UHGV virus genome: UHGV-0778869
DNA length: 23,187 nt
Source: a virus
Strand: one strand, 5' to 3'
Each line of letters starts with the position of its first letter. Position 1 is the stretch's first letter. A program made the position numbers and the translations under genes. Under the pieces are notes generated by a model that saw nothing but the letters and a program-made list of their open reading frames with translations, did not search any database and was not told the DNA's origin. Shown here in pieces: positions 2,866 to 19,792 of the stretch.

Positions 2866-3302
2866 GCAGCCCGATCTCCCCATCGCGCTTTCCATTCGAG
2901 AGCCAGTCGCGCTTCGTCTGACCACTTAACGCCACGCTCTGTACCGAATGCCTGTATAAGCTCTAATAGCTCCGCAAATTCGCTTACACGCATCCTGCTG
3001 GTTGACTGGCCTATTACCACAAAGCCATTCCCGGCAAGGTTAGGAACAACGTCCTGCTGCTTTAATGCAGCTGTAAAAACGCACTTCCAGCTTTCTGCAT
3101 CCAGCCAGCGACCATGCCATTCAACCTGACGAGAGACGTCACCAAGGCAAGCCCAAAGCTTTCGATTCTGGTCTAAGCTGCGGTTGCGTTCCTGAATGGT
3201 TACTACGATTGGTTTGGTTGGGTCTGGAAGGATTTGCTGTACTGCGTGAATAGCATTTTGCTGAAGTGCTGGAGATCGAATTTCAAAGGTCAGTTTTTTC
3301 AT
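2862..3302 (-). CDS. ninB: NinB / Orf recombination mediator (146 aa)
   Basis: From internal ATG at 3302: MKKLTFEIRSPALQQNAIHAVQQILPDPTKPIVVTIQERNRSLDQNRKLWACLGDV..., near-identical to lambda NinB as recalled; SD GAGAGGGAAG upstream. Confidence 0.9.
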   Translation of the reverse strand: MKKLTFEIRSPALQQNAIHAVQQILPDPTKPIVVTIQERNRSLDQNRKLWACLGDVSRQVEWHGRWLDAESWKCVFTAALKQQDVVPNLAGNGFVVIGQSTSRMRVSEFAELLELIQAFGTERGVKWSDEARLALEWKARWGDRAA

Positions 3303-3316
3303 GACTTCCCTCTCCC

Positions 3317-3350
3317 CCAAATAAAAAGGCCTGCGATTACCAGCAGGCCT
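3317..3350 (-). terminator. Intrinsic terminator between helicase and ninB (tR2-like position)
   Basis: On minus strand: stem AGGCCTGC (3350-3343) / GCAGGCCT (3334-3327), 8-nt loop, then TTTTATTTGG. Confidence 0.7.
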
Positions 3351-3378
3351 GTTACAAGCTCAGTGATGTAGATGGTCA

Positions 3379-4815
3379 TCAGAATCCTCCTTTCTTCTTG
3401 GACTGCGGTTCCTCGCGTTCACGGCGGCGCATTTCAGCAGACTGTTGGTCTGTGTCATAAATAGCGCCATTTGCCTGAATGCAATACACCGTGCCGGTAT
3501 TGCCATGACGATTGAGACGAAGGATTAGTTCTGTTTCACCAGGTGGAACACTGTCATCAAAAGCACCTTCACGATGGATCCCCACCCAATAATCGCAATC
3601 CTGTTCAATCTGCCCTGTATCGCGCGAGTCACTTGGTAATGGGCGTTTATTGGTTCTGCTTTCCAGTGCGCGGTTAAGCTGTGTCAGAAGCACAACAACG
3701 CAATCAAGCTCTTTGGCAAGGTTCTTCAGTCCTTTGGTGATCATGCCGTAAGCAAGGTCGTTGCGATCGGCCTTCTCAGCGGTCATTAGTGTCAGGTAAT
3801 CGACCAGAATCATGCCAACACATCCTTTTTCTCGCTTGATTCGACGGCTTTCGCTGACGATTTGAGCCAGAGATAATCCCGGCGTGTCGTCGATGTATAG
3901 CAGGTCGATTTCACTCAAGCGATTGGCTGTTTCGATCGCCCTGTTGAAGTCACCATCGTAATCACCCTGATAGCCGTCATCAGCGTCATTTGTCGCCGGA
4001 AGGTAAAAAATATTCGGGTTAACACCTGACTTCTGTCCTACCAGTTTTTCCAGTATCTGGTCGCCTGGCATTTCAAGGCTGAACATCAGAGCGGGCTTTT
4101 TCTCATGCACTGCGCAGTTGATTGCCATCTGGCTGTATAGCGTCGTTTTCCCCATCTTAGGGCGAGCGCCAATGACAAACAGAGAGCCTTTCACCAGGCC
4201 TTTCGGTGACAGCATCCTGTCCAGCGATGGGATCCCTGTGCTCATTCCTCGTTGTTCGCCTGACGGATCAAATCGCTTCTCAAGGTCGCTAACCCAGTCT
4301 TCCATGACCTCACCAAATGAGCGAAGGCCGCGACGCGATCCGGTTTTTGCATGGTCTGTCAGTTGCGTGAAAATCGCCTGAATAGCTTCGTACTTCTGCG
4401 TTGCAGTCATTCCGTTGCGGGAATAGAGCAATTCCGTCGCTTCAGTCATGCGGTTGATGGCGTAGCGTTCCATTGCGGTTTCACGAACCTGCATTGCATA
4501 GGCAACGATGTTTGCTGCGCTTGGCGTGTTCTTTGCGATCTCAGCGATATAAGCAAAACCGCCAACAGACGCCGTTAACGATTTACGCTCCAGTTCATCG
4601 AAAAGCGTCAGGCCATCTACTGGCTTTTGCTCACGGTGCATTCTGGTTATTTCTTCGAAAATGATTTTGTGTGGTCGGCTGTAAAATGAATCAGGCTTCA
4701 GCATCGCCAGAACTTTCTGGACGCGCTCACTGCTGTCATCATCCAGAAGCAATCCACCAATCACCGCCTGCTCTGCCTCGATGCTATGGGGCGGCGCATA
4801 AAAATTATCGGTCAT
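3379..4815 (-). CDS. DnaB-type replicative helicase (P22 gene 12-like)
   Basis: ATG at 4815 with GAGGG SD; N-terminal SIEAEQAVIGGLLLD (DnaB N-domain), Walker A GARPKMGKTT, Walker B ILVDYLTLM; overlaps the O-like gene end by 11 nt. Confidence 0.85.
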   Translation of the reverse strand: MTDNFYAPPHSIEAEQAVIGGLLLDDDSSERVQKVLAMLKPDSFYSRPHKIIFEEITRMHREQKPVDGLTLFDELERKSLTASVGGFAYIAEIAKNTPSAANIVAYAMQVRETAMERYAINRMTEATELLYSRNGMTATQKYEAIQAIFTQLTDHAKTGSRRGLRSFGEVMEDWVSDLEKRFDPSGEQRGMSTGIPSLDRMLSPKGLVKGSLFVIGARPKMGKTTLYSQMAINCAVHEKKPALMFSLEMPGDQILEKLVGQKSGVNPNIFYLPATNDADDGYQGDYDGDFNRAIETANRLSEIDLLYIDDTPGLSLAQIVSESRRIKREKGCVGMILVDYLTLMTAEKADRNDLAYGMITKGLKNLAKELDCVVVLLTQLNRALESRTNKRPLPSDSRDTGQIEQDCDYWVGIHREGAFDDSVPPGETELILRLNRHGNTGTVYCIQANGAIYDTDQQSAEMRRREREEPQSKKKGGF

Positions 4816-14574: not shown

Positions 14575-14919
14575 ATGTCAGATTTGGCTATGAAGGTTTT
14601 GAAATGGCAATCGACTGGCGATGTTGGCATTAGTAGCGCAACTCTTGCCTCAATCGCATGTGGACTGGAAAAGAATATCTATGGTCATCACTTCGGCGCT
14701 CCCCATGACGCAGCAGACTTCCGGCGATGCGTTGCACTTGTTGAGCAGATTCCAGAAATCAGAGATTCATTCGACAAGGTTGCAAAGCGCGTTCCGGCAT
14801 TCAAAGGCATCCTCACCGAATGGGATTCCCTCGTTGCTCTGTTGAAGTCTGAAATGAAGATACACCGAAACAAAGCACCAGAGACTTACAGAAGAATTAG
14901 CGAGTTACGCAAGGACTAA
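14575..14919 (+). CDS. Hypothetical protein (114 aa)
   Basis: ATG 14575 with GGAGA SD; MSDLAMKVLKWQSTGDVGISSATLASIACGLEKNIYGHHFGAPHDAADFRR...; no family recognised. Confidence 0.55.
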   Translation: MSDLAMKVLKWQSTGDVGISSATLASIACGLEKNIYGHHFGAPHDAADFRRCVALVEQIPEIRDSFDKVAKRVPAFKGILTEWDSLVALLKSEMKIHRNKAPETYRRISELRKD

Positions 14920-14977: not shown

Positions 14978-15001
14978 GCCGCATCAATGCGGCTTTTTCT
15001 T
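14978..15001 (+). terminator. Intrinsic terminator upstream of xis
   Basis: Stem GCCGCA / TGCGGC with loop TCAA, then TTTTTCTT. Confidence 0.6.
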
Positions 15002-15013
15002 GCGTGTAATTGC
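15000..15013 (+). promoter_or_regulatory. Candidate pI CII-binding site TTGC-N6-TTGC (TTGCGTGTAATTGC)
   Basis: Same motif as at pRE; sits just 5' of the xis ATG so that a dependent transcript would start inside xis, as for lambda pI. Confidence 0.6.
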
Positions 15014-15025
15014 GGAGACTTTGCG

Positions 15026-15244
15026 ATGTACTTGACACTTCAGGAGTGGAACGCTCGCCAGCGACGCCCAAGAAGCCTTGAAACAGTTCGTCGATGGGTG
15101 CGCGAGTGCAGGATATTCCCTCCTCCGGTTAAGGATGGAAGAGAGTATCTGTTCCACGAATCAGCGGTAAAGGTTGACTTAAATCGACCAGTAACAGGTA
15201 GCCTTTTGAAGAGGATCAGAAATGGGAAGAAGGCGAAGTCATGA
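15026..15244 (+). CDS. xis: Excisionase Xis (72 aa)
   Basis: MYLTLQEWNARQRRPRSLETVRRWVRECRIFPPPVKDGREYLFHESAVKVDLNRPVTGSLLKRIRNGKKAKS matches lambda Xis as recalled; overlaps int by 23 nt. Confidence 0.95.
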   Translation: MYLTLQEWNARQRRPRSLETVRRWVRECRIFPPPVKDGREYLFHESAVKVDLNRPVTGSLLKRIRNGKKAKS

Positions 15245-16292
15245 GCGCCGGGATTTACCCCCTAACCTTTATATAAGAAACAATGGATATTACTGCTACA
15301 GGGACCCAAGGACGGGTAAAGAGTTTGGATTAGGCAGAGACAGGAGGATAGCAATCACTGAAGCTATACAGGCCAACATTGAGTTATTTTCAGGACACAA
15401 ACACAAGCCTCTGACAGCGAGAATCAACAGTGATAATTCTGTTACGTTACATTCATGGCTTGATCGCTACGAAAAAATACTCGCCAGCAGAGGAATCAAG
15501 CAGAAGACACTCATAAATTACATGAGCAAAATTAAAGCAATAAGGAGGGGTCTGCCTGATGCTCCACTTGAAGACATCACCACAAAAGAAATTGCGGCAA
15601 TGCTCAATGGATATATAGACGATGGCAAGGCGGCGTCAGCCAAGTTAATCAGATCAACACTGAGCGATGCATTCCGAGAGGCAATAGCTGAAGGCCATAT
15701 AACAACAAACCCGGTCGCTGCCACTCGCGCAGCAAAATCAGAGGTAAGGAGATCAAGGCTTACGGCTGACGAATACCTGAAAATTTATCAAGCAGCAGAA
15801 TCATCACCATGTTGGCTCAGACTTGCAATGGAACTGGCTGTTGTTACCGGGCAGCGAGTTGGTGATTTATGCGAAATGAAGTGGTCTGATATCGTAGATG
15901 GATATCTTTATGTCGAGCAAAGCAAAACAGGCGTAAAAATTGCCATCCCAACAGCATTGCATGTTGATGCCCTCGGGATATCAATGAAGGAAACACTTGA
16001 TAAATGCAAAGAGATTCTTGGCGGAGAAACCATAATTGCATCTACTCGTCGTGAACCGCTTTCATCCGGCACAGTATCAAGGTATTTTATGCGCGCACGA
16101 AAAGCATCAGGTCTTTCCTTCGAAGGGGATCCGCCTACCTTTCACGAGTTGCGCAGTTTGTCTGCAAGACTCTATGAGAAGCAGATAAGCGATAAGTTTG
16201 CTCAACATCTTCTCGGGCATAAGTCGGACACCATGGCATCACAGTATCGTGATGACAGAGGCAGGGAGTGGGACAAAATTGAAATCAAATAA
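15222..16292 (+). CDS. int: Tyrosine integrase, lambda Int type (356 aa)
   Basis: MGRRRSHERRDLPPNLYIRNNGYYCYRDPRTGKEFGLGRDRRIAITEA... ...HELRSLSARLYEKQ...LLGHKSDTMASQYRDD: essentially lambda Int as recalled, with the R-H-R-Y catalytic region. Confidence 0.95.
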   Translation: MGRRRSHERRDLPPNLYIRNNGYYCYRDPRTGKEFGLGRDRRIAITEAIQANIELFSGHKHKPLTARINSDNSVTLHSWLDRYEKILASRGIKQKTLINYMSKIKAIRRGLPDAPLEDITTKEIAAMLNGYIDDGKAASAKLIRSTLSDAFREAIAEGHITTNPVAATRAAKSEVRRSRLTADEYLKIYQAAESSPCWLRLAMELAVVTGQRVGDLCEMKWSDIVDGYLYVEQSKTGVKIAIPTALHVDALGISMKETLDKCKEILGGETIIASTRREPLSSGTVSRYFMRARKASGLSFEGDPPTFHELRSLSARLYEKQISDKFAQHLLGHKSDTMASQYRDDRGREWDKIEIK

Positions 16293-16540
16293 TGATTTTA
16301 TTTTGACTGATAGTGACCTGTTCGTTGCAACAAATTGATAAGCAATGCTTTTTTATAATGCCAACTTAGTATAAAAAAGCTGAACGTGAAACATTAAAAA
16401 TCATTAATATCAATGCATTACAATATCTTTAGTCTAAAAAATAGACTACATAATGCGACAAAACACAACATATCCAGTCACTATGAATCAACCACTTAGA
16501 TGGTATTAGTGACCTGTAACAGAGCATTAGCGCAAGGTGA
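16293..16540. other. attP: P' arm, 15-bp core (16366-16380, reverse complement of GCTTTTTTATACTAA) and P arm
   Basis: P' arm and core match lambda attP as recalled; the P arm (16476-16525) is similar to lambda's but diverged. Confidence 0.85.
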
Positions 16541-16543
16541 TTT

Positions 16544-16584
16544 TTGTCTTCTTGCGCTAATTTTTTGTCAACATACTGGGTTAT
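16544..16584 (+). terminator. sib / tI-like hairpin terminator downstream of attP
   Basis: Stem TTAGCGCAAG / CTTGCGCTAA (10 bp), 14-nt loop, then TTTTTTG; matches the lambda sib/tI region as recalled. Confidence 0.75.
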
Positions 16585-16781
16585 CTGAATTTACAACCAT
16601 GCTCAGTATCTCGATAAGCGCAGAGAAATGATGCAGTGGTGGGCGGACTGGCTTGATGAAAAGGTGGAGTGATCCACCTTTACCATTATCGAAGAGAACA
16701 AAGCCTTGCAAGCCAATGCAAAGCTTTGTGTGTCCCGTTTTTGTCTCAACATAGCCTTAGATATAGACAACGCAATCACTT

Positions 16782-18848
16782 TTATTGGAATGAAATACTG
16801 CACTCCATTTCAGTTGGTGACCCTGTATTGCTGTACGTTACAATAGTCCATGAGGTTGCAGATACCTTGTTTACGACCATGTATCTCCCAGTTCCTGGTG
16901 ACGTAAATGTATATCCTGCAGTCGACATGTCTGTCGGAAATGTTATCACCCAAACACCAGGTGATGTTTTGGATGCTAAGCATCCAACTGCTGATAACAG
17001 AACTCCTGAGCTATTTATATTTACAACACATGGTGAGTTTATAATCTTAACAACACCTGTATCAAGTATGTATGTATCAAACACTTTACCTATTCTGTTG
17101 CCATTTAGGTATGTAACTGCTGTTGCTGACAATCCAGCCCTGTTCCTTAAAACAGTTGAAACTCCAAGCCCTGAGCAATTAGTTACTTGCTGATCTGATA
17201 CCATTCCTGAAGTTGAACTAAATTGCTCCATAATTGCATCAACGGTATTTGACCCATTAAAGCAGTTGAATGAAACGTTCTCTAACTTATTCCTTCTCAC
17301 TGACTTTCCTGAGTCAGATCTAACGTTGCAGATTCTGTTGTACTGCCCTGGAGTGTTTATTTGTACAAATCCACCTCTTATCTTGTTGTCAAGACAGTCT
17401 GTTAATGATTCGCTATGGTCGTATAAATCATACGCTCTTTTAAAATCACCATTATTATTCATGAAGATTAAAACATCTTCTATGAGATTGTTACTACAAC
17501 CTTGAATAGCTATCACGCTATCATTACCATTAAAAGCACCATTTGCGATACTGGTAAATTTACCGCCAACAATCTTGCAGTTAGTGCATCCGCGTGAGAA
17601 CTTAATGTTATTGTTACCACCTATAGCGCCATCGACATTCCCAAGAACTGATGAATTATGAATTCCTTCACAGTTTATGAACTGAAAATCAGTAGTAGGA
17701 AATCCAATACCGTCAGCAGAAGTAGCATGATAATTAACAAGCAGCCCGTTTTCTGCGTATCCTCCCTGAACAAACCCACCCTTAACTCCAAGTATCTCCA
17801 TGTTACCACCGGCCTTAGATTGTCCTATAAACCTTGGCATGGTTATCTCAGGGTCAATAGCGCCGATAACGACAAAGTTACCATGGTTAGCTCCCTTATG
17901 ACCGGTTCCATCAAAGGTGCATCTAATGGCCCTTATCTTTGATCGTCTAGTTGAATCAGCAGATCCGTAAGAAGTATTTCCCATTCTTAATGGCGTCACA
18001 TCTGAATCACCATTGAAATACAGATCTCTTACTTCTATATTATTCCCTGTTAATTCTATTGCACCAAAGCTCTTATTAAACAATGATCCTGTCAAAGTTA
18101 TTCTAGCCTGATTGATGGCTAATATTTTTTTATTGTCAAGGCTTGATATTACGTTATTTGTTATTTTTACATTTATATCTATGTAAATCTCATCAAAATA
18201 TATTAACAACATACTGATTAGTGATGTTATATCACTGTCAGGTGATGTCCAGTCGCTAATTTTTGTGCTTCTAGACCGTGTTCTTTTTTCAAGATAACAA
18301 GTTACCCCGCCAATCACTGCGGAGTTTTGACTCAATGACGATATTGTTCCGCTTGCTGGAGGTGATATATAAAATAATCCAAATTCAGTGTGAATATCTG
18401 TTGTACCAACAGGAATAATATCTCCAACCTTTGCCGTAGCTCTTACATCATTAGGGAATACAACCCCTGGCAATATTTCGTCACGCATTTCATTGACGTA
18501 TACTCTTAACTGGTCAGGGTCATACTTCAACACATTAGGAAAATAGAACTGCTGCGCACCATATGCATCATAAACAGCCATCGAATGACCTTGCACGGTA
18601 ACGAATTTGGCAATCTGTCCGTTATATACCGGGTAACCAGCAGCGTTAATGATGATTGGTTGCGAAACAGGAACGTGAGAACCGTCTTCGTTCTCCACAT
18701 AAACCTGAATCTGGTTTTCAGGATTTACCGGATCCGTGTCAATTTTACCGATATAAATTTTGCCATTGGCTACGGCTTTAAAAGAACGAGCCATAGTGAA
18801 GAGTTGCGAAGGCATGCTTACCACAACATTTGCGGTGATATCTGACAT
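16782..18848 (-). CDS. Tailspike protein: P22-type N-terminal head-binding domain fused to a distinct beta-helix receptor-binding domain (about 688 aa)
   Basis: ATG 18848 with GGAG SD; N-terminus [43 protein letters not shown]...NVLKYDPDQ parallels P22 gp9 residues 1-110; the rest is Gly/Asn-rich repeats typical of right-handed beta-helix depolymerases and unlike P22 gp9. Confidence 0.85.
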
Positions 18849-18969
18849 TTCATTGCTCCAGACGAATGATATGATGCAACCATGATGTGATTGCATACCG
18901 AAATGGTACTATTGAGTATTTATCCAGTAGGTTACGATGCCATTCCACCCAACTGGTGAGGCATCAAGG

Positions 18970-19236
18970 ATGTACAGCAAATACGACGAGGCGCAGTTTC
19001 ACTTGAGACTTCCGCATGAACTCCACGCGAAAATTAAGCAGCGTGCGAAGATGAATAACAGGTCGCTGAACTCAGAGATAATTGCAGCGATTGAAGAATC
19101 ATTGGCTAAACAAAGCTCTGCATCTGTTTACATTGACGATGCAGAGCGTATGGCAGAACAACAATCTGAGATGGTTAAGAAAATTGTCTTTGATACGCTT
19201 AAGACCATGTATAGCAATAATAAAAAGGAAACATAG
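18970..19236 (+). CDS. mnt: Mnt-like ribbon-helix-helix repressor (about 88 aa)
   Basis: AQFHLRLPHELHAKIKQRAKMNNRSLNSEIIAAIEESL ... DAERMAEQQSEMVKKIVFDTLK parallels P22 Mnt as recalled; start uncertain (ATG 18970 or 18937). Confidence 0.75.
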   Translation: MYSKYDEAQFHLRLPHELHAKIKQRAKMNNRSLNSEIIAAIEESLAKQSSASVYIDDAERMAEQQSEMVKKIVFDTLKTMYSNNKKET

Positions 19237-19306
19237 AAATCTAGTTTCCGGCTAAAATGGCATTGCCTTCATGATATCCTGTGAAAAACTAAGGAGAGTT
19301 AACCAT

Positions 19307-19792
19307 ATGAAAAAGTCACTGTTAATTATCCCGCTTCTGCTGGTTGGATGCGCAAAAGTAAGTGACTATCAAGCAAGTTGCGAACAACGCTATCAAAAGC
19401 TTAGCGATATGGCTAATTGCCTTGATGCCAGTGTGAAGAACGACTCACGCATGGCATCAGCACCAACACCTAAGCTGTATGTCCTTGCTGCAAAGATGCT
19501 CGGGCAAAGTGTCGATGAAGGCAAGATAAGTGACGCACAGGCAAGACTTGAGCTTCAGAATCTTTATGTTCAATTACAAAGCCAAGAACAAGCCCAACAA
19601 ATAGCACAAAGCCAAGCATTCCAGCAGGCTTTATTGAATTATCAGGCTGTAAACACAATGCAAGCGATCGAGCAAAAAGCGAGACAGCCTGTTATAACTC
19701 AACCCTATCCAACACGAGTTGACACTTACACAAACTGCAATTCAGGATTTGGAAACACGGTAACATGCAACAGTAGCAGTAGCATCAGATAA
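19307..19792 (+). CDS. Lipoprotein (161 aa) with Gln-rich mature domain
   Basis: AAGGAGAG SD; signal peptide MKKSLLIIPLLLVGC with lipobox LVGC; located between mnt and the ejection-protein gene. Confidence 0.7.
   Translation: MKKSLLIIPLLLVGCAKVSDYQASCEQRYQKLSDMANCLDASVKNDSRMASAPTPKLYVLAAKMLGQSVDEGKISDAQARLELQNLYVQLQSQEQAQQIAQSQAFQQALLNYQAVNTMQAIEQKARQPVITQPYPTRVDTYTNCNSGFGNTVTCNSSSSIR

What the first reader, a model, noticed from the sequence alone, without database searches (positions are those of the whole stretch)
16293..16584. Intact attP with a lambda core and sib hairpin in a P22-architecture genome
Both the P' arm and a diverged P arm flank the lambda 15-bp core, so this is an unintegrated attP rather than a prophage junction. 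The integration module (int, xis, core, sib) is lambda-like while the flanking tailspike and immI-like region are P22-like, which is a clear mosaic joint. The P arm divergence could affect Int arm-site and IHF/Xis binding.
Basis: partly seen in the sequence, partly recalled or inferred. Interest (0 to 1): 0.35.

Follow-up and report, generated by a model that had tools for sequence, protein, structure and literature searches.

The report
Lambda attP in a P22-like phage
This is an ordinary, complete phage-lambda-type attachment site with its integrase, excisionase and sib regulator, carried by a P22-like phage; near-identical copies are already in sequenced phages and in over a thousand E. coli genomes.

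Summary
Window 16293-16584 holds a complete lambda-type attP, read on the reverse strand relative to the lambda map. From left to right it has the P' arm, the 15-bp core (16366-16380), the P arm, and the tI/sib hairpin, directly after an int gene 353/356 aa identical to lambda Int.

The P' arm and core are identical to lambda. All divergence sits in one ungapped 73-bp patch (-14 to -86; 22 substitutions). That patch spares every Int arm site, the three IHF consensus motifs, Xis site X1, and the G/C ends of the Fis site.

This "diverged" P arm is the common natural allele. It occurs in HK106, HK97, 434, JEP4 and Huey, and at ≥90% identity in about 1,340 of 5,426 complete E. coli genomes. Lambda's own allele is the rarer one.

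Prophage copies break exactly at the core, next to ybhC and the canonical attB flanks, so the window's site is unrecombined. P22-like phages with this same module next to the tailspike are already sequenced (JEP4, Huey, an IMG/VR contig).

The mosaic joint is real. A 27-codon scar of an HK620-type integrase lies just beyond sib.

Verdict: real, functional-looking, already known, low interest.

The parts
14978..15013 (+). Left edge of the lambda-homologous cassette. A terminator hairpin (14978-14993) is followed by the cII box of the pI promoter, TTGCGTGTAATTGC (15000-15013).
   Evidence: Homology with lambda starts at 14978. The terminator-like hairpin was found. The sequence was read. The equivalent features are annotated in phage 434.
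15026..15244 (+). xis (excisionase), 72 aa
   Evidence: 71/72 aa identical to lambda Xis. Matches Pfam Exc and PHROG excisionase.
15222..16292 (+). int (lambda-type tyrosine integrase), 356 aa
   Evidence: 353/356 aa identical to lambda Int. The differences are E134D, H164P and I248V. R212, K235, H308, R311, H333 and Y342 are all present. Pfam finds Arm-DNA-bind_1 plus Phage_integrase.
16293..16365 (-). P' arm (+80 to +8): arm sites P'3, P'2 and P'1 (about 16293-16320), IHF site H' (16328-16340), and core-type site C'.
   Evidence: Identical to lambda at 73/73 positions. AGGTCACTAT lies at 16310-16319. IHF consensus lies at 16328-16340. Site names come from the established lambda att map.
16366..16380 (-). 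15-bp common core GCTTTTTTATACTAA, containing the 7-bp overlap TTTATAC. This is the crossover point.
   Evidence: Unique exact match in the window. Prophage junctions in E. coli and IMG/VR change sequence exactly at its edges.
16381..16533 (-). P arm (-8 to -160). It holds C, H2 (16408-16420), the Fis 15-mer (16432-16446, GTCTATTTTTTAGAC), X2 (16440-16452), X1.5 (about 16453-16459), X1 (16460-16472), P2 (16475-16484), H1 (16486-16498) and P1 (16505-16515). The hypervariable patch is 16387-16459.
   Evidence: Alignments. Mismatch map. Motif hits. Allele comparison. Site assignment comes from the established lambda att map, with numbering as in PMC2952878.
16509..16584 (+). tI terminator and sib retroregulatory hairpin. 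The inner stem is 16526-16561 and the U-run is 16562-16567.
   Evidence: RNA fold of -31.7 kcal/mol, z = -4.8. Identical to lambda through the T-run. Annotated as sib in HK97 and as a terminator in 434.
16589..16672 (+). Scar: the last 27 codons and stop codon of an HK620/Sf6-type (IntS) integrase gene. It marks the right-hand mosaic joint.
   Evidence: Translation IYNHAQYLDKRREMMQWWADWLDEKVE* is identical to the HK620 Int C-terminus. DNA matches.
16698..16721 (-). Conserved element downstream of int, TTGC-N6-TTGC-N6-TTGT. It has been annotated as a terminator or as putative cII boxes.
   Evidence: Matches lambda 27473-27510 and also 434, HK620, epsilon34 and P22-family phages. Annotations. 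Discussed in PMC2629481.
16782..18896 (-). Tailspike gene of the P22-like backbone, convergent with int.
   Evidence: Pfam Head_binding at aa 17-129. PHROG tailspike families. The C-terminal part is 66% identical to the tailspike of phage AV101.

Best explanation
This is the functional phage attachment site (attP, P-O-P') of a temperate P22-like (Lederbergvirus, Sf6/HK620-type) E. coli/Shigella phage. The phage carries the lambda integration cassette pI-xis-int-attP-tI/sib.

Inferred mechanism, from the lambda paradigm:
- Integration: Int (N-terminal domain on P1, P'1, P'2, P'3; C-terminal domain on C and C') and host IHF (H1, H2, H') fold supercoiled attP into an intasome. The intasome captures the bare attB between ybhC and bio, then exchanges strands across the 7-bp overlap TTTATAC.
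- Excision: this uses P2, P'1 and P'2, with Xis at X1/X1.5/X2, Fis at F, and IHF at H2 and H'.
- Regulation: sib lies across attP from int. N-antiterminated pL transcripts of the free phage therefore read through tI, form the RNase III hairpin, and lose int expression. cII-activated pI transcripts stop at tI and produce Int without Xis. After integration, sib is separated from int, so induction yields both Int and Xis.

The 73-bp divergent patch is a widespread natural allele of the stretch that holds the Fis site, X1.5, and the degenerate positions and flanks of H2. It leaves the recognition determinants and the helical phasing intact.

Shown here: sequence identity, site conservation, gene content, and breakpoints at the core in prophages. 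Inferred: protein binding, recombination activity and retroregulation for this particular phage.
For: The core is unique and exact.

The cassette aligns ungapped with lambda 29126-27528 at 96.6%. The P' arm and core are identical, and the P1, P2, H1, X1 and sib region shows 2-5% mismatch.

Int is 353/356 aa identical with all catalytic residues. Xis is 71/72 identical. The arm-binding domain is present.

IHF consensus matches sit exactly at H', H2 and H1. Perfect or near-perfect arm-type sites lie at P2 and P'1. The pI cII box is intact. The sib hairpin is stable.

The same P-arm allele occurs in HK106 (2/73 differences in the patch), JEP4 (3), HK97 (5), ev099 and Huey (7 each) and 434 (12).

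In E. coli genomes, matches to the int side stop at window 16380, the end of the core, in most of 3,176 genomes. At one 100%-identical junction, ybhC lies just beyond. The IMG/VR prophage ends L016-L018 join the P arm and core to CTTGAGCG, and strain EC2 joins the P' arm and core to GCCTGC. Together these rebuild the canonical lambda attB.

The window is collinear with Sf6 across the att site, and every sizeable ORF tested is a phage gene. An IMG/VR contig (L015) has the same contiguous int-attP-scar arrangement at 98.2% identity.
Against: No experiment on this phage is available, so binding and recombination are inferred. The patch changes 4 positions in X1.5, 1 in X2, 4 in the Fis 15-mer, and several flanking H2. 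Quantitative differences in excision efficiency are therefore possible. The window alone cannot show whether the DNA was free phage DNA or the internal junction of a tandem lysogen.
Confidence: 0.9

Rival explanations
1. The site is the same intact attP, but the window comes from a bacterial chromosome. It would be the internal P-O-P' junction between two tandem prophages (a polylysogen at attB), not a free or virion phage genome.
For: E. coli ExPEC XM (CP025328) carries a duplicated P22-like prophage with a contiguous lambda-type attP between the tailspike and int. A handful of other chromosomes also match straight through the core (H106-H112).
Against: Only about 7 of 3,176 matching genomes show a contiguous match. 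The window's order is exactly that of complete P22-like phage genomes sequenced as such: Sf6, JEP4 and Huey. It also matches a viral metagenome contig. No bacterial gene appears in the 23 kb.
Confidence: 0.08
2. The attP is a decayed or functionally altered relic. Its divergent P arm would impair Xis, Fis or IHF assembly, so the phage integrates or excises poorly or relies on another system.
For: There are 22 substitutions in 73 bp between the core and X1, including 4 in X1.5 and 4 in the Fis 15-mer.
Against: There are no indels. P1, P2, X1, the H1/H2/H' consensus and the G/C ends of the Fis site are all kept. The same allele is carried by the viable temperate phages 434, HK97 and HK106. It occurs at ≥90% identity in about 1,340 E. 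coli genomes, against about 250 with the lambda allele at ≥95%. No second integrase is present, only a 27-codon scar.
Confidence: 0.03
3. The module has shifted target specificity and uses an attB other than the lambda gal-bio site.
For: A related P22-like phage, Gally, carries the same cassette with 7/15 core changes and 22/73 P'-arm changes. Specificity does therefore drift within this family.
Against: In the window, the core, C, C' and the whole P' arm are identical to lambda, and Int differs at only 3 non-catalytic positions. Prophages with a 100%-identical int-side sequence sit at ybhC.
Confidence: 0.02

Closest known systems
Bacteriophage lambda attP with int, xis, pI and tI/sib (lambda 27528-29126)
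   Same: The 15-bp core, P' arm, C/C', P1, P2 and X1 are identical. The IHF consensus at H1, H2 and H' is kept. The sib hairpin, the pI cII box, the order int-attP-sib and the spacing (no indels) are the same. Int is 99% and Xis 99% identical.
   Different: There are 22 substitutions in the patch from -14 to -86 (H2 flanks and N positions, Fis 15-mer, X2 at 1 position, X1.5 at 4). Beyond sib, lambda continues into the b region, whereas here an IntS scar and a tailspike gene follow.
attP allele of the lambdoid siphoviruses HK106, HK97, 434 and ev099
   Same: They carry the same P-arm allele. Differences in the patch are 2/73 for HK106, 5/73 for HK97, 7/73 for ev099 and 12/73 for 434. HK97 is annotated 'core identical to lambda' and 'sib retroregulation site'. 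434 and ev099 also share the IntS scar after sib.
   Different: These phages have lambda-like or HK97-like long-tail virion genes next to attP (stf/tfa, or nle effector genes in 434), not a P22-type tailspike.
P22-like (Lederbergvirus) E. coli phages JEP4 (MT740315) and Huey (PQ850609), and IMG/VR contig UViG_3300045988_036280
   Same: The architecture is the same: early-left genes, xis, lambda-type int, attP, sib, IntS scar, then a convergent tailspike. Identity over window 16200-16700 is 94-96% for the two phages and 98.2% for the IMG/VR contig.
   Different: The tailspike receptor-binding domains differ. So do the small genes between the scar and the tailspike (a hypothetical gene in JEP4, a UmuD-like gene in Huey, none here).
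HK620/Sf6 integration module (IntS-type integrase, attP upstream of int)
   Same: The backbone is the same. The window is 96% identical to Sf6 over 49% of its length. The last 27 codons of that int gene and its downstream element are still present at 16589-16745.
   Different: In HK620 and Sf6, attP lies upstream of int, and there is no sib. Here that module has been replaced by the lambda cassette.
Phage P22 and epsilon34 int/attP (tRNA thrW and argU targets)
   Same: The position in the genome is the same, between the early-left operon and the tailspike or conversion genes. They also share the conserved TTGC-repeat element downstream of int.
   Different: The integrase lineage is unrelated. 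Their attP is homologous to a tRNA 3' end, they lack the lambda core, and no sib is annotated.

Membership tests
Lambda-type attP (heterobivalent tyrosine-integrase attachment site) | 15-bp common core with the 7-bp overlap TTTATAC, identical to attB | tested here: met
   Exact and unique at 16366-16380. The same 15 bp is shared with the host junctions.
Lambda-type attP (heterobivalent tyrosine-integrase attachment site) | Inverted core-type Int sites C and C' flanking the overlap | tested here: met
   Positions -13 to +80 are identical to lambda.
Lambda-type attP (heterobivalent tyrosine-integrase attachment site) | Five arm-type Int sites (P1, P2, P'1-3) at lambda spacing | tested here: met
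   All five are identical to lambda and the alignment is ungapped. P2 is a perfect CAGTCACTAT and P'1 is AGGTCACTAT.
Lambda-type attP (heterobivalent tyrosine-integrase attachment site) | IHF sites H1, H2 and H' | tested here: met
   WATCAANNNNTTR matches lie at 16486-16498, 16408-16420 and 16328-16340. These are 3 of only 4 matches in the window. Substitutions against lambda fall in the N positions.
Lambda-type attP (heterobivalent tyrosine-integrase attachment site) | Xis sites X1, X1.5 and X2 and the overlapping Fis site | tested here: inconclusive
   X1 is identical. X2 has 1 substitution and X1.5 has 4. The Fis 15-mer keeps its terminal G and C and its A/T centre and becomes palindromic. 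Actual binding cannot be tested with these tools. The site definitions come from the established lambda literature, recalled from memory and not retrieved here.
Lambda-type attP (heterobivalent tyrosine-integrase attachment site) | Adjacent int with an arm-binding N-terminal domain and catalytic RKHRH-Y residues, plus xis | tested here: met
Lambda-type attP (heterobivalent tyrosine-integrase attachment site) | Recombination with attB between gal and bio | tested here: met
   This rests on comparative evidence only. Prophages with identical or near-identical arms break at the core against ybhC and the attB flanks GCCTGC and CTTGAGCG. It was not shown for this individual phage.
Lambda sib/tI retroregulation | Hairpin plus U-run downstream of int and across attP from it, extendable into the RNase III stem on read-through | tested here: met
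   The sequence is identical to lambda through the T-run. The fold is -31.7 kcal/mol, z = -4.8, with the extended outer stem. The order int-attP-sib is kept. RNase III processing was not testable.
P22-like (Lederbergvirus) genome architecture | Tailspike with the P22 head-binding N-terminal domain next to the att/int region | tested here: met
   Pfam Head_binding, E = 1.9e-67.
P22-like (Lederbergvirus) genome architecture | Ejection (DNA transfer) protein genes upstream of the tailspike, and collinearity with Sf6/HK620 | tested here: met
   PHROGs 770 and 2534. The window is 96.4% identical to Sf6 over 49% of its length, in collinear order.
P22-like (Lederbergvirus) genome architecture | Complete immI region (mnt, arc, ant, sar) | tested here: not met
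   Only an Mnt-like gene was found (Pfam Arc plus Repressor_Mnt). The neighbouring 173-aa ORF has no known function. There are no Rfam hits. The region is therefore 'immI-like' only in part.

The most novel reading that the evidence does not exclude
The 73-bp patch (-14 to -86) may be a functionally distinct allele and not neutral spacer. It diverges 30% from lambda, while int diverges 1.5% and the other att sites 0-3%. The common natural form, seen here, carries a perfectly palindromic Fis site matching the consensus (GTCTATTTTTTAGAC) and an altered X1.5 and H2 context. This could make excision more dependent on Fis and growth phase, or change its Xis dependence, compared with laboratory lambda. 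If so, lambda's textbook P arm would be the atypical variant.
Probability: 0.15. Interest if true: 0.3.

Novelty: already known. Interest (0 to 1): 0.1.

Why it matters
It matters little for discovery, because this is among the best-understood DNA sites in biology, found in a familiar mosaic context. It is useful for annotation in three ways. It fixes the phage's integration target at attB-lambda (ybhC-bio). It shows that the sequence is in the unrecombined phage configuration. It places the right-hand module boundary at about 16577-16588, between the end of lambda homology after sib and the start of the IntS scar. A minor general point is that the lambda reference P arm is the minority allele among natural E. 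coli prophages. Natural variation leaves the known protein-contact positions untouched.

Tried and rejected
- Rfam scan of the whole window: no family reached its threshold, so there is no sar, oop or other curated RNA to report.
- The simple terminator scan missed tI/sib, because its loop exceeds the scanner's limit. Folding was used instead.
- Published coordinates for the Xis and Fis sites: the eLife 2016 and NAR 2010 papers gave the numbering convention and the site list but no sequences. Abbani 2007 is not held. The Xis and Fis site positions therefore rest on my own knowledge of the lambda att map and are marked as such.
- Simple crossover at the core: I considered whether the divergent patch reflects an Int-mediated crossover with another phage at the core. 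I rejected this as the sole explanation, because identity with lambda resumes at -87 and continues through sib.
- ORFs inside attP: I considered whether the minus-strand ORFs at 16603-16803, or the small ORFs annotated inside attP in Huey and 434, are genes. There are no family hits and they overlap the integrase scar, so I treated them as spurious.
- TTGC-repeat element beyond sib: whether it is a cII-dependent promoter or a terminator could not be decided.

Full report
**What is at the coordinates**

The int ORF (15222-16292, + strand) ends at 16292. The sequence that follows is the reverse complement of lambda attP. The lambda 15-bp core GCTTTTTTATACTAA occurs exactly once in the 23-kb window, at 16366-16380 on the minus strand. 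About 0.01 matches are expected by chance.

A blastn comparison with lambda gives a single ungapped block: window 14978-16576 equals lambda 29126-27528 at 96.6% identity. The conventional att numbering sets 0 at the third T of the overlap, as stated in PMC2952878. On that scale, window position w corresponds to n = 16373 - w.

**Where the divergence lies**

Mismatches against lambda, by segment:

| Segment | Mismatches |
|---|---|
| xis | 7/219 |
| int | 16/1071 |
| P' arm | 0/73 |
| core | 0/15 |
| -8 to -13 | 0/6 |
| -14 to -86 | 22/73 (30%) |
| -87 to -160 | 2/74 |
| sib | 2/43 |

There are no indels, so helical phasing between sites is unchanged.

I placed the substitutions on the lambda site map. 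The site positions come from the established literature and were recalled from memory.
- P'1-3, H', C', O and C are untouched.
- H2 keeps the IHF consensus (TATCAATGCATTA at 16408-16420), with changes only at the N positions and in the flanks.
- The Fis 15-mer keeps its terminal G and C and its A/T centre. It becomes the palindrome GTCTATTTTTTAGAC (16432-16446).
- X2 has one change and X1.5 has four.
- X1, P2 (CAGTCACTAT, 16475-16484) and P1 are identical.
- H1 (16486-16498) has one change, at an N position.

A pattern scan supports this independently. Three of the four exact IHF-consensus matches in the whole window are H', H2 and H1. The two best arm-type matches are P2 and P'1.

**The genes and regulatory signals of the cassette**

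- Int is 353/356 aa identical to lambda Int. The differences are E134D, H164P and I248V, and R212, K235, H308, R311, H333 and Y342 are all present. It carries the lambda arm-binding domain.
- Xis is 71/72 identical.
- The cII box of pI, TTGCGTGTAATTGC, sits at 15000-15013, just before the xis ATG at 15026.
- The tI/sib hairpin folds at -31.7 kcal/mol (z = -4.8), with the outer stem that only read-through transcripts can complete. It is identical to lambda through the T-run.
- An N-like antiterminator and a cII gene are present upstream in the same operon layout. The logic of lambda retroregulation is therefore intact.

**The "diverged" P arm is the common allele**

I aligned nine phage attP regions and counted differences from the window within the 73-bp patch:

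| Phage | Differences in the patch |
|---|---|
| HK106 | 2 |
| JEP4 | 3 |
| HK97 | 5 |
| ev099 | 7 |
| Huey | 7 |
| 434 | 12 |
| lambda | 22 |
| Gally | 28 |

HK97's record annotates the core as identical to lambda's and annotates the sib site. The 434 record annotates the O core and the terminator.

Among 5,426 complete E. coli genomes, 1,739 match the window's core and P arm (175 bases). Of these, 1,339 match at 90% identity or more. Lambda's own allele is matched at 95% or more in only about 249 genomes. Relative to natural prophages, lambda is the outlier.

**Intact attP versus prophage junction**

With a query spanning the site, most of 3,176 matching E. coli genomes align only up to query position 481. 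That position is window 16380, the last base of the core.

In strain EC2 (100% identical on the int side), the next gene after the core is ybhC, the classical attB-lambda neighbourhood.

An exact-word scan of IMG/VR found four contigs:
- One (L015) is contiguous through attP at 98.2% identity over window 14989-16748.
- Three (L016-L018) begin to match at window 16362, four bases before the core.

The alignment of these junctions shows:
- P arm plus core joined to CTTGAGCG in L016-L018;
- P' arm plus core joined to GCCTGC-TTCAACGG in EC2.

Together these reconstruct the canonical lambda attB.

**Genome context and the mosaic joint**

All sizeable ORFs tested are phage genes. They include NinG, a methyltransferase, an HNH endonuclease, a DnaB-like helicase, an O-like protein, cII, a repressor, an N-like protein, a Sak4-like protein, SSB, Abc2, xis, int, a tailspike, an Mnt-like protein and two DNA-transfer proteins.

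The window is collinear with Sf6, at 96.4% identity over 49% of its length. The 704-aa ORF at 16782-18896 carries the P22 tailspike head-binding domain. The "P22 architecture" reading is therefore correct. The "immI-like" description holds only in part, because only an Mnt homologue is present.

The right-hand joint is sharply defined. Lambda homology stops at 16576. Positions 16589-16672 encode IYNHAQYLDKRREMMQWWADWLDEKVE*, which is identical to the C-terminus of the HK620 IntS-type integrase. In HK620 and Sf6 that int gene occupies this position, with its attP upstream of int. The lambda cassette therefore replaced an HK620-type integration module and left a 27-codon scar.

The same scar follows sib in 434, ev099, JEP4, Huey and Gally, but not in lambda, HK97 or HK106. 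The cassette plus scar thus circulates among lambdoid phages of both tail types.

P22-like phages with exactly this arrangement are already in GenBank (JEP4, Huey). The mosaic is therefore not new.

**Caveat on "unintegrated"**

E. coli ExPEC XM carries a duplicated P22-like prophage with a contiguous lambda-type attP between the tailspike and int. An intact attP can therefore also be the internal junction of a tandem lysogen. Only a handful of chromosomes show this. The window matches complete phage genomes in gene order, so free phage DNA is much the likelier source. The window alone cannot exclude the alternative.

**Mechanism**

Inferred from the lambda paradigm:
- Integration: Int and IHF assemble the integrative intasome on attP using P1, P'1-3, H1, H2 and H'. 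The intasome captures attB and exchanges strands across TTTATAC.
- Excision: this uses P2, P'1 and P'2, with Xis at X1/X1.5/X2, Fis, and IHF at H2 and H'.
- Regulation: sib, lying across attP from int, destroys pL-derived int message in the free phage but not in the prophage. pI transcripts end at tI and give Int without Xis.

Site conservation and genomic breakpoints are shown here. Protein binding and catalysis are inferred.

**Verdict**

The feature is a textbook element in an already sequenced configuration, so it is already known and of low interest.

The only mildly open points are these:
- whether the natural P-arm allele, with its perfect palindromic Fis site, tunes excision differently from laboratory lambda;
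- what the conserved TTGC-N6-TTGC-N6-TTGT element just beyond the scar does.

Noticed in passing
window 16589-16672 (+): This is a 27-codon 3' remnant, with stop codon, of an HK620/Sf6-type IntS integrase gene, identical in amino acids to the HK620 Int C-terminus. It lies between sib and the tailspike. The same scar is present in 434, ev099, JEP4, Huey and Gally, and absent from lambda, HK97 and HK106.
   Followed up: yes
window 16698-16721 (minus strand); lambda 27473-27510: This is a conserved element, TTGC-N6-TTGC-N6-TTGT, found downstream of int in lambda, 434, HK620, epsilon34 and P22-family phages. It is annotated as a terminator in HK620 and as putative cII sites in epsilon34 and 434. 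The repeats read on the strand opposite int, so a cII-dependent promoter here would fire back across sib and attP. In the five sequences compared, the TTGC tetramers are invariant. The substitutions in lambda and HK620 would break the alternative hairpin stem.
   Followed up: partly
window 16782-18896 (-): The tailspike has a P22-type head-binding N-terminus, but its receptor-binding part (aa 130-704) has no close P22-like relative. The best match in the phage collection is 66% identity to the tailspike of the 157-kb phage AV101. Only four phage records match at all.
   Followed up: partly
window 18937-19792 (+): An Mnt-like repressor (Arc plus Repressor_Mnt domains) is followed by a 173-aa ORF of unknown function (phrog_6067). 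No arc or ant gene is evident in the window, and no sar RNA was found, so the immI region is incomplete or remodelled.
   Followed up: partly
window 19313-19403 (+): Two near-matches to the Int arm-type consensus (AAGTCACTGT, AAGTGACTAT) and one exact IHF consensus cluster within 90 bp, inside the 173-aa ORF. This is probably chance, since about 2 arm-type near-matches are expected per window.
   Followed up: no
L019 (E. coli ExPEC XM, CP025328, 818-867 kb): The chromosome carries a duplicated or tandem P22-like prophage, with identical tailspike and DNA-transfer proteins appearing twice. A contiguous lambda-type attP lies between the tailspike and int. This example shows that an intact attP can sit inside a chromosome.
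   Followed up: partly
L008 (phage Gally, OV696608), locus 3088-3530: Gally has the same cassette layout, but its core differs at 7/15 positions and its P' arm at 22/73. Its distal P arm (2/74) and sib are almost unchanged. This suggests a shifted attB specificity built on the same arm and sib scaffold.
   Followed up: partly
window 14978 (left edge of the lambda homology): Homology with lambda begins exactly at the terminator hairpin upstream of pI. The 114-aa ORF to its left (14575-14919, phrog_1229) appears to correspond to 345-nt ORFs at the same position upstream of xis in the P22-like relatives Huey and Gally. Both cassette boundaries thus coincide with transcription signals.
   Followed up: partly
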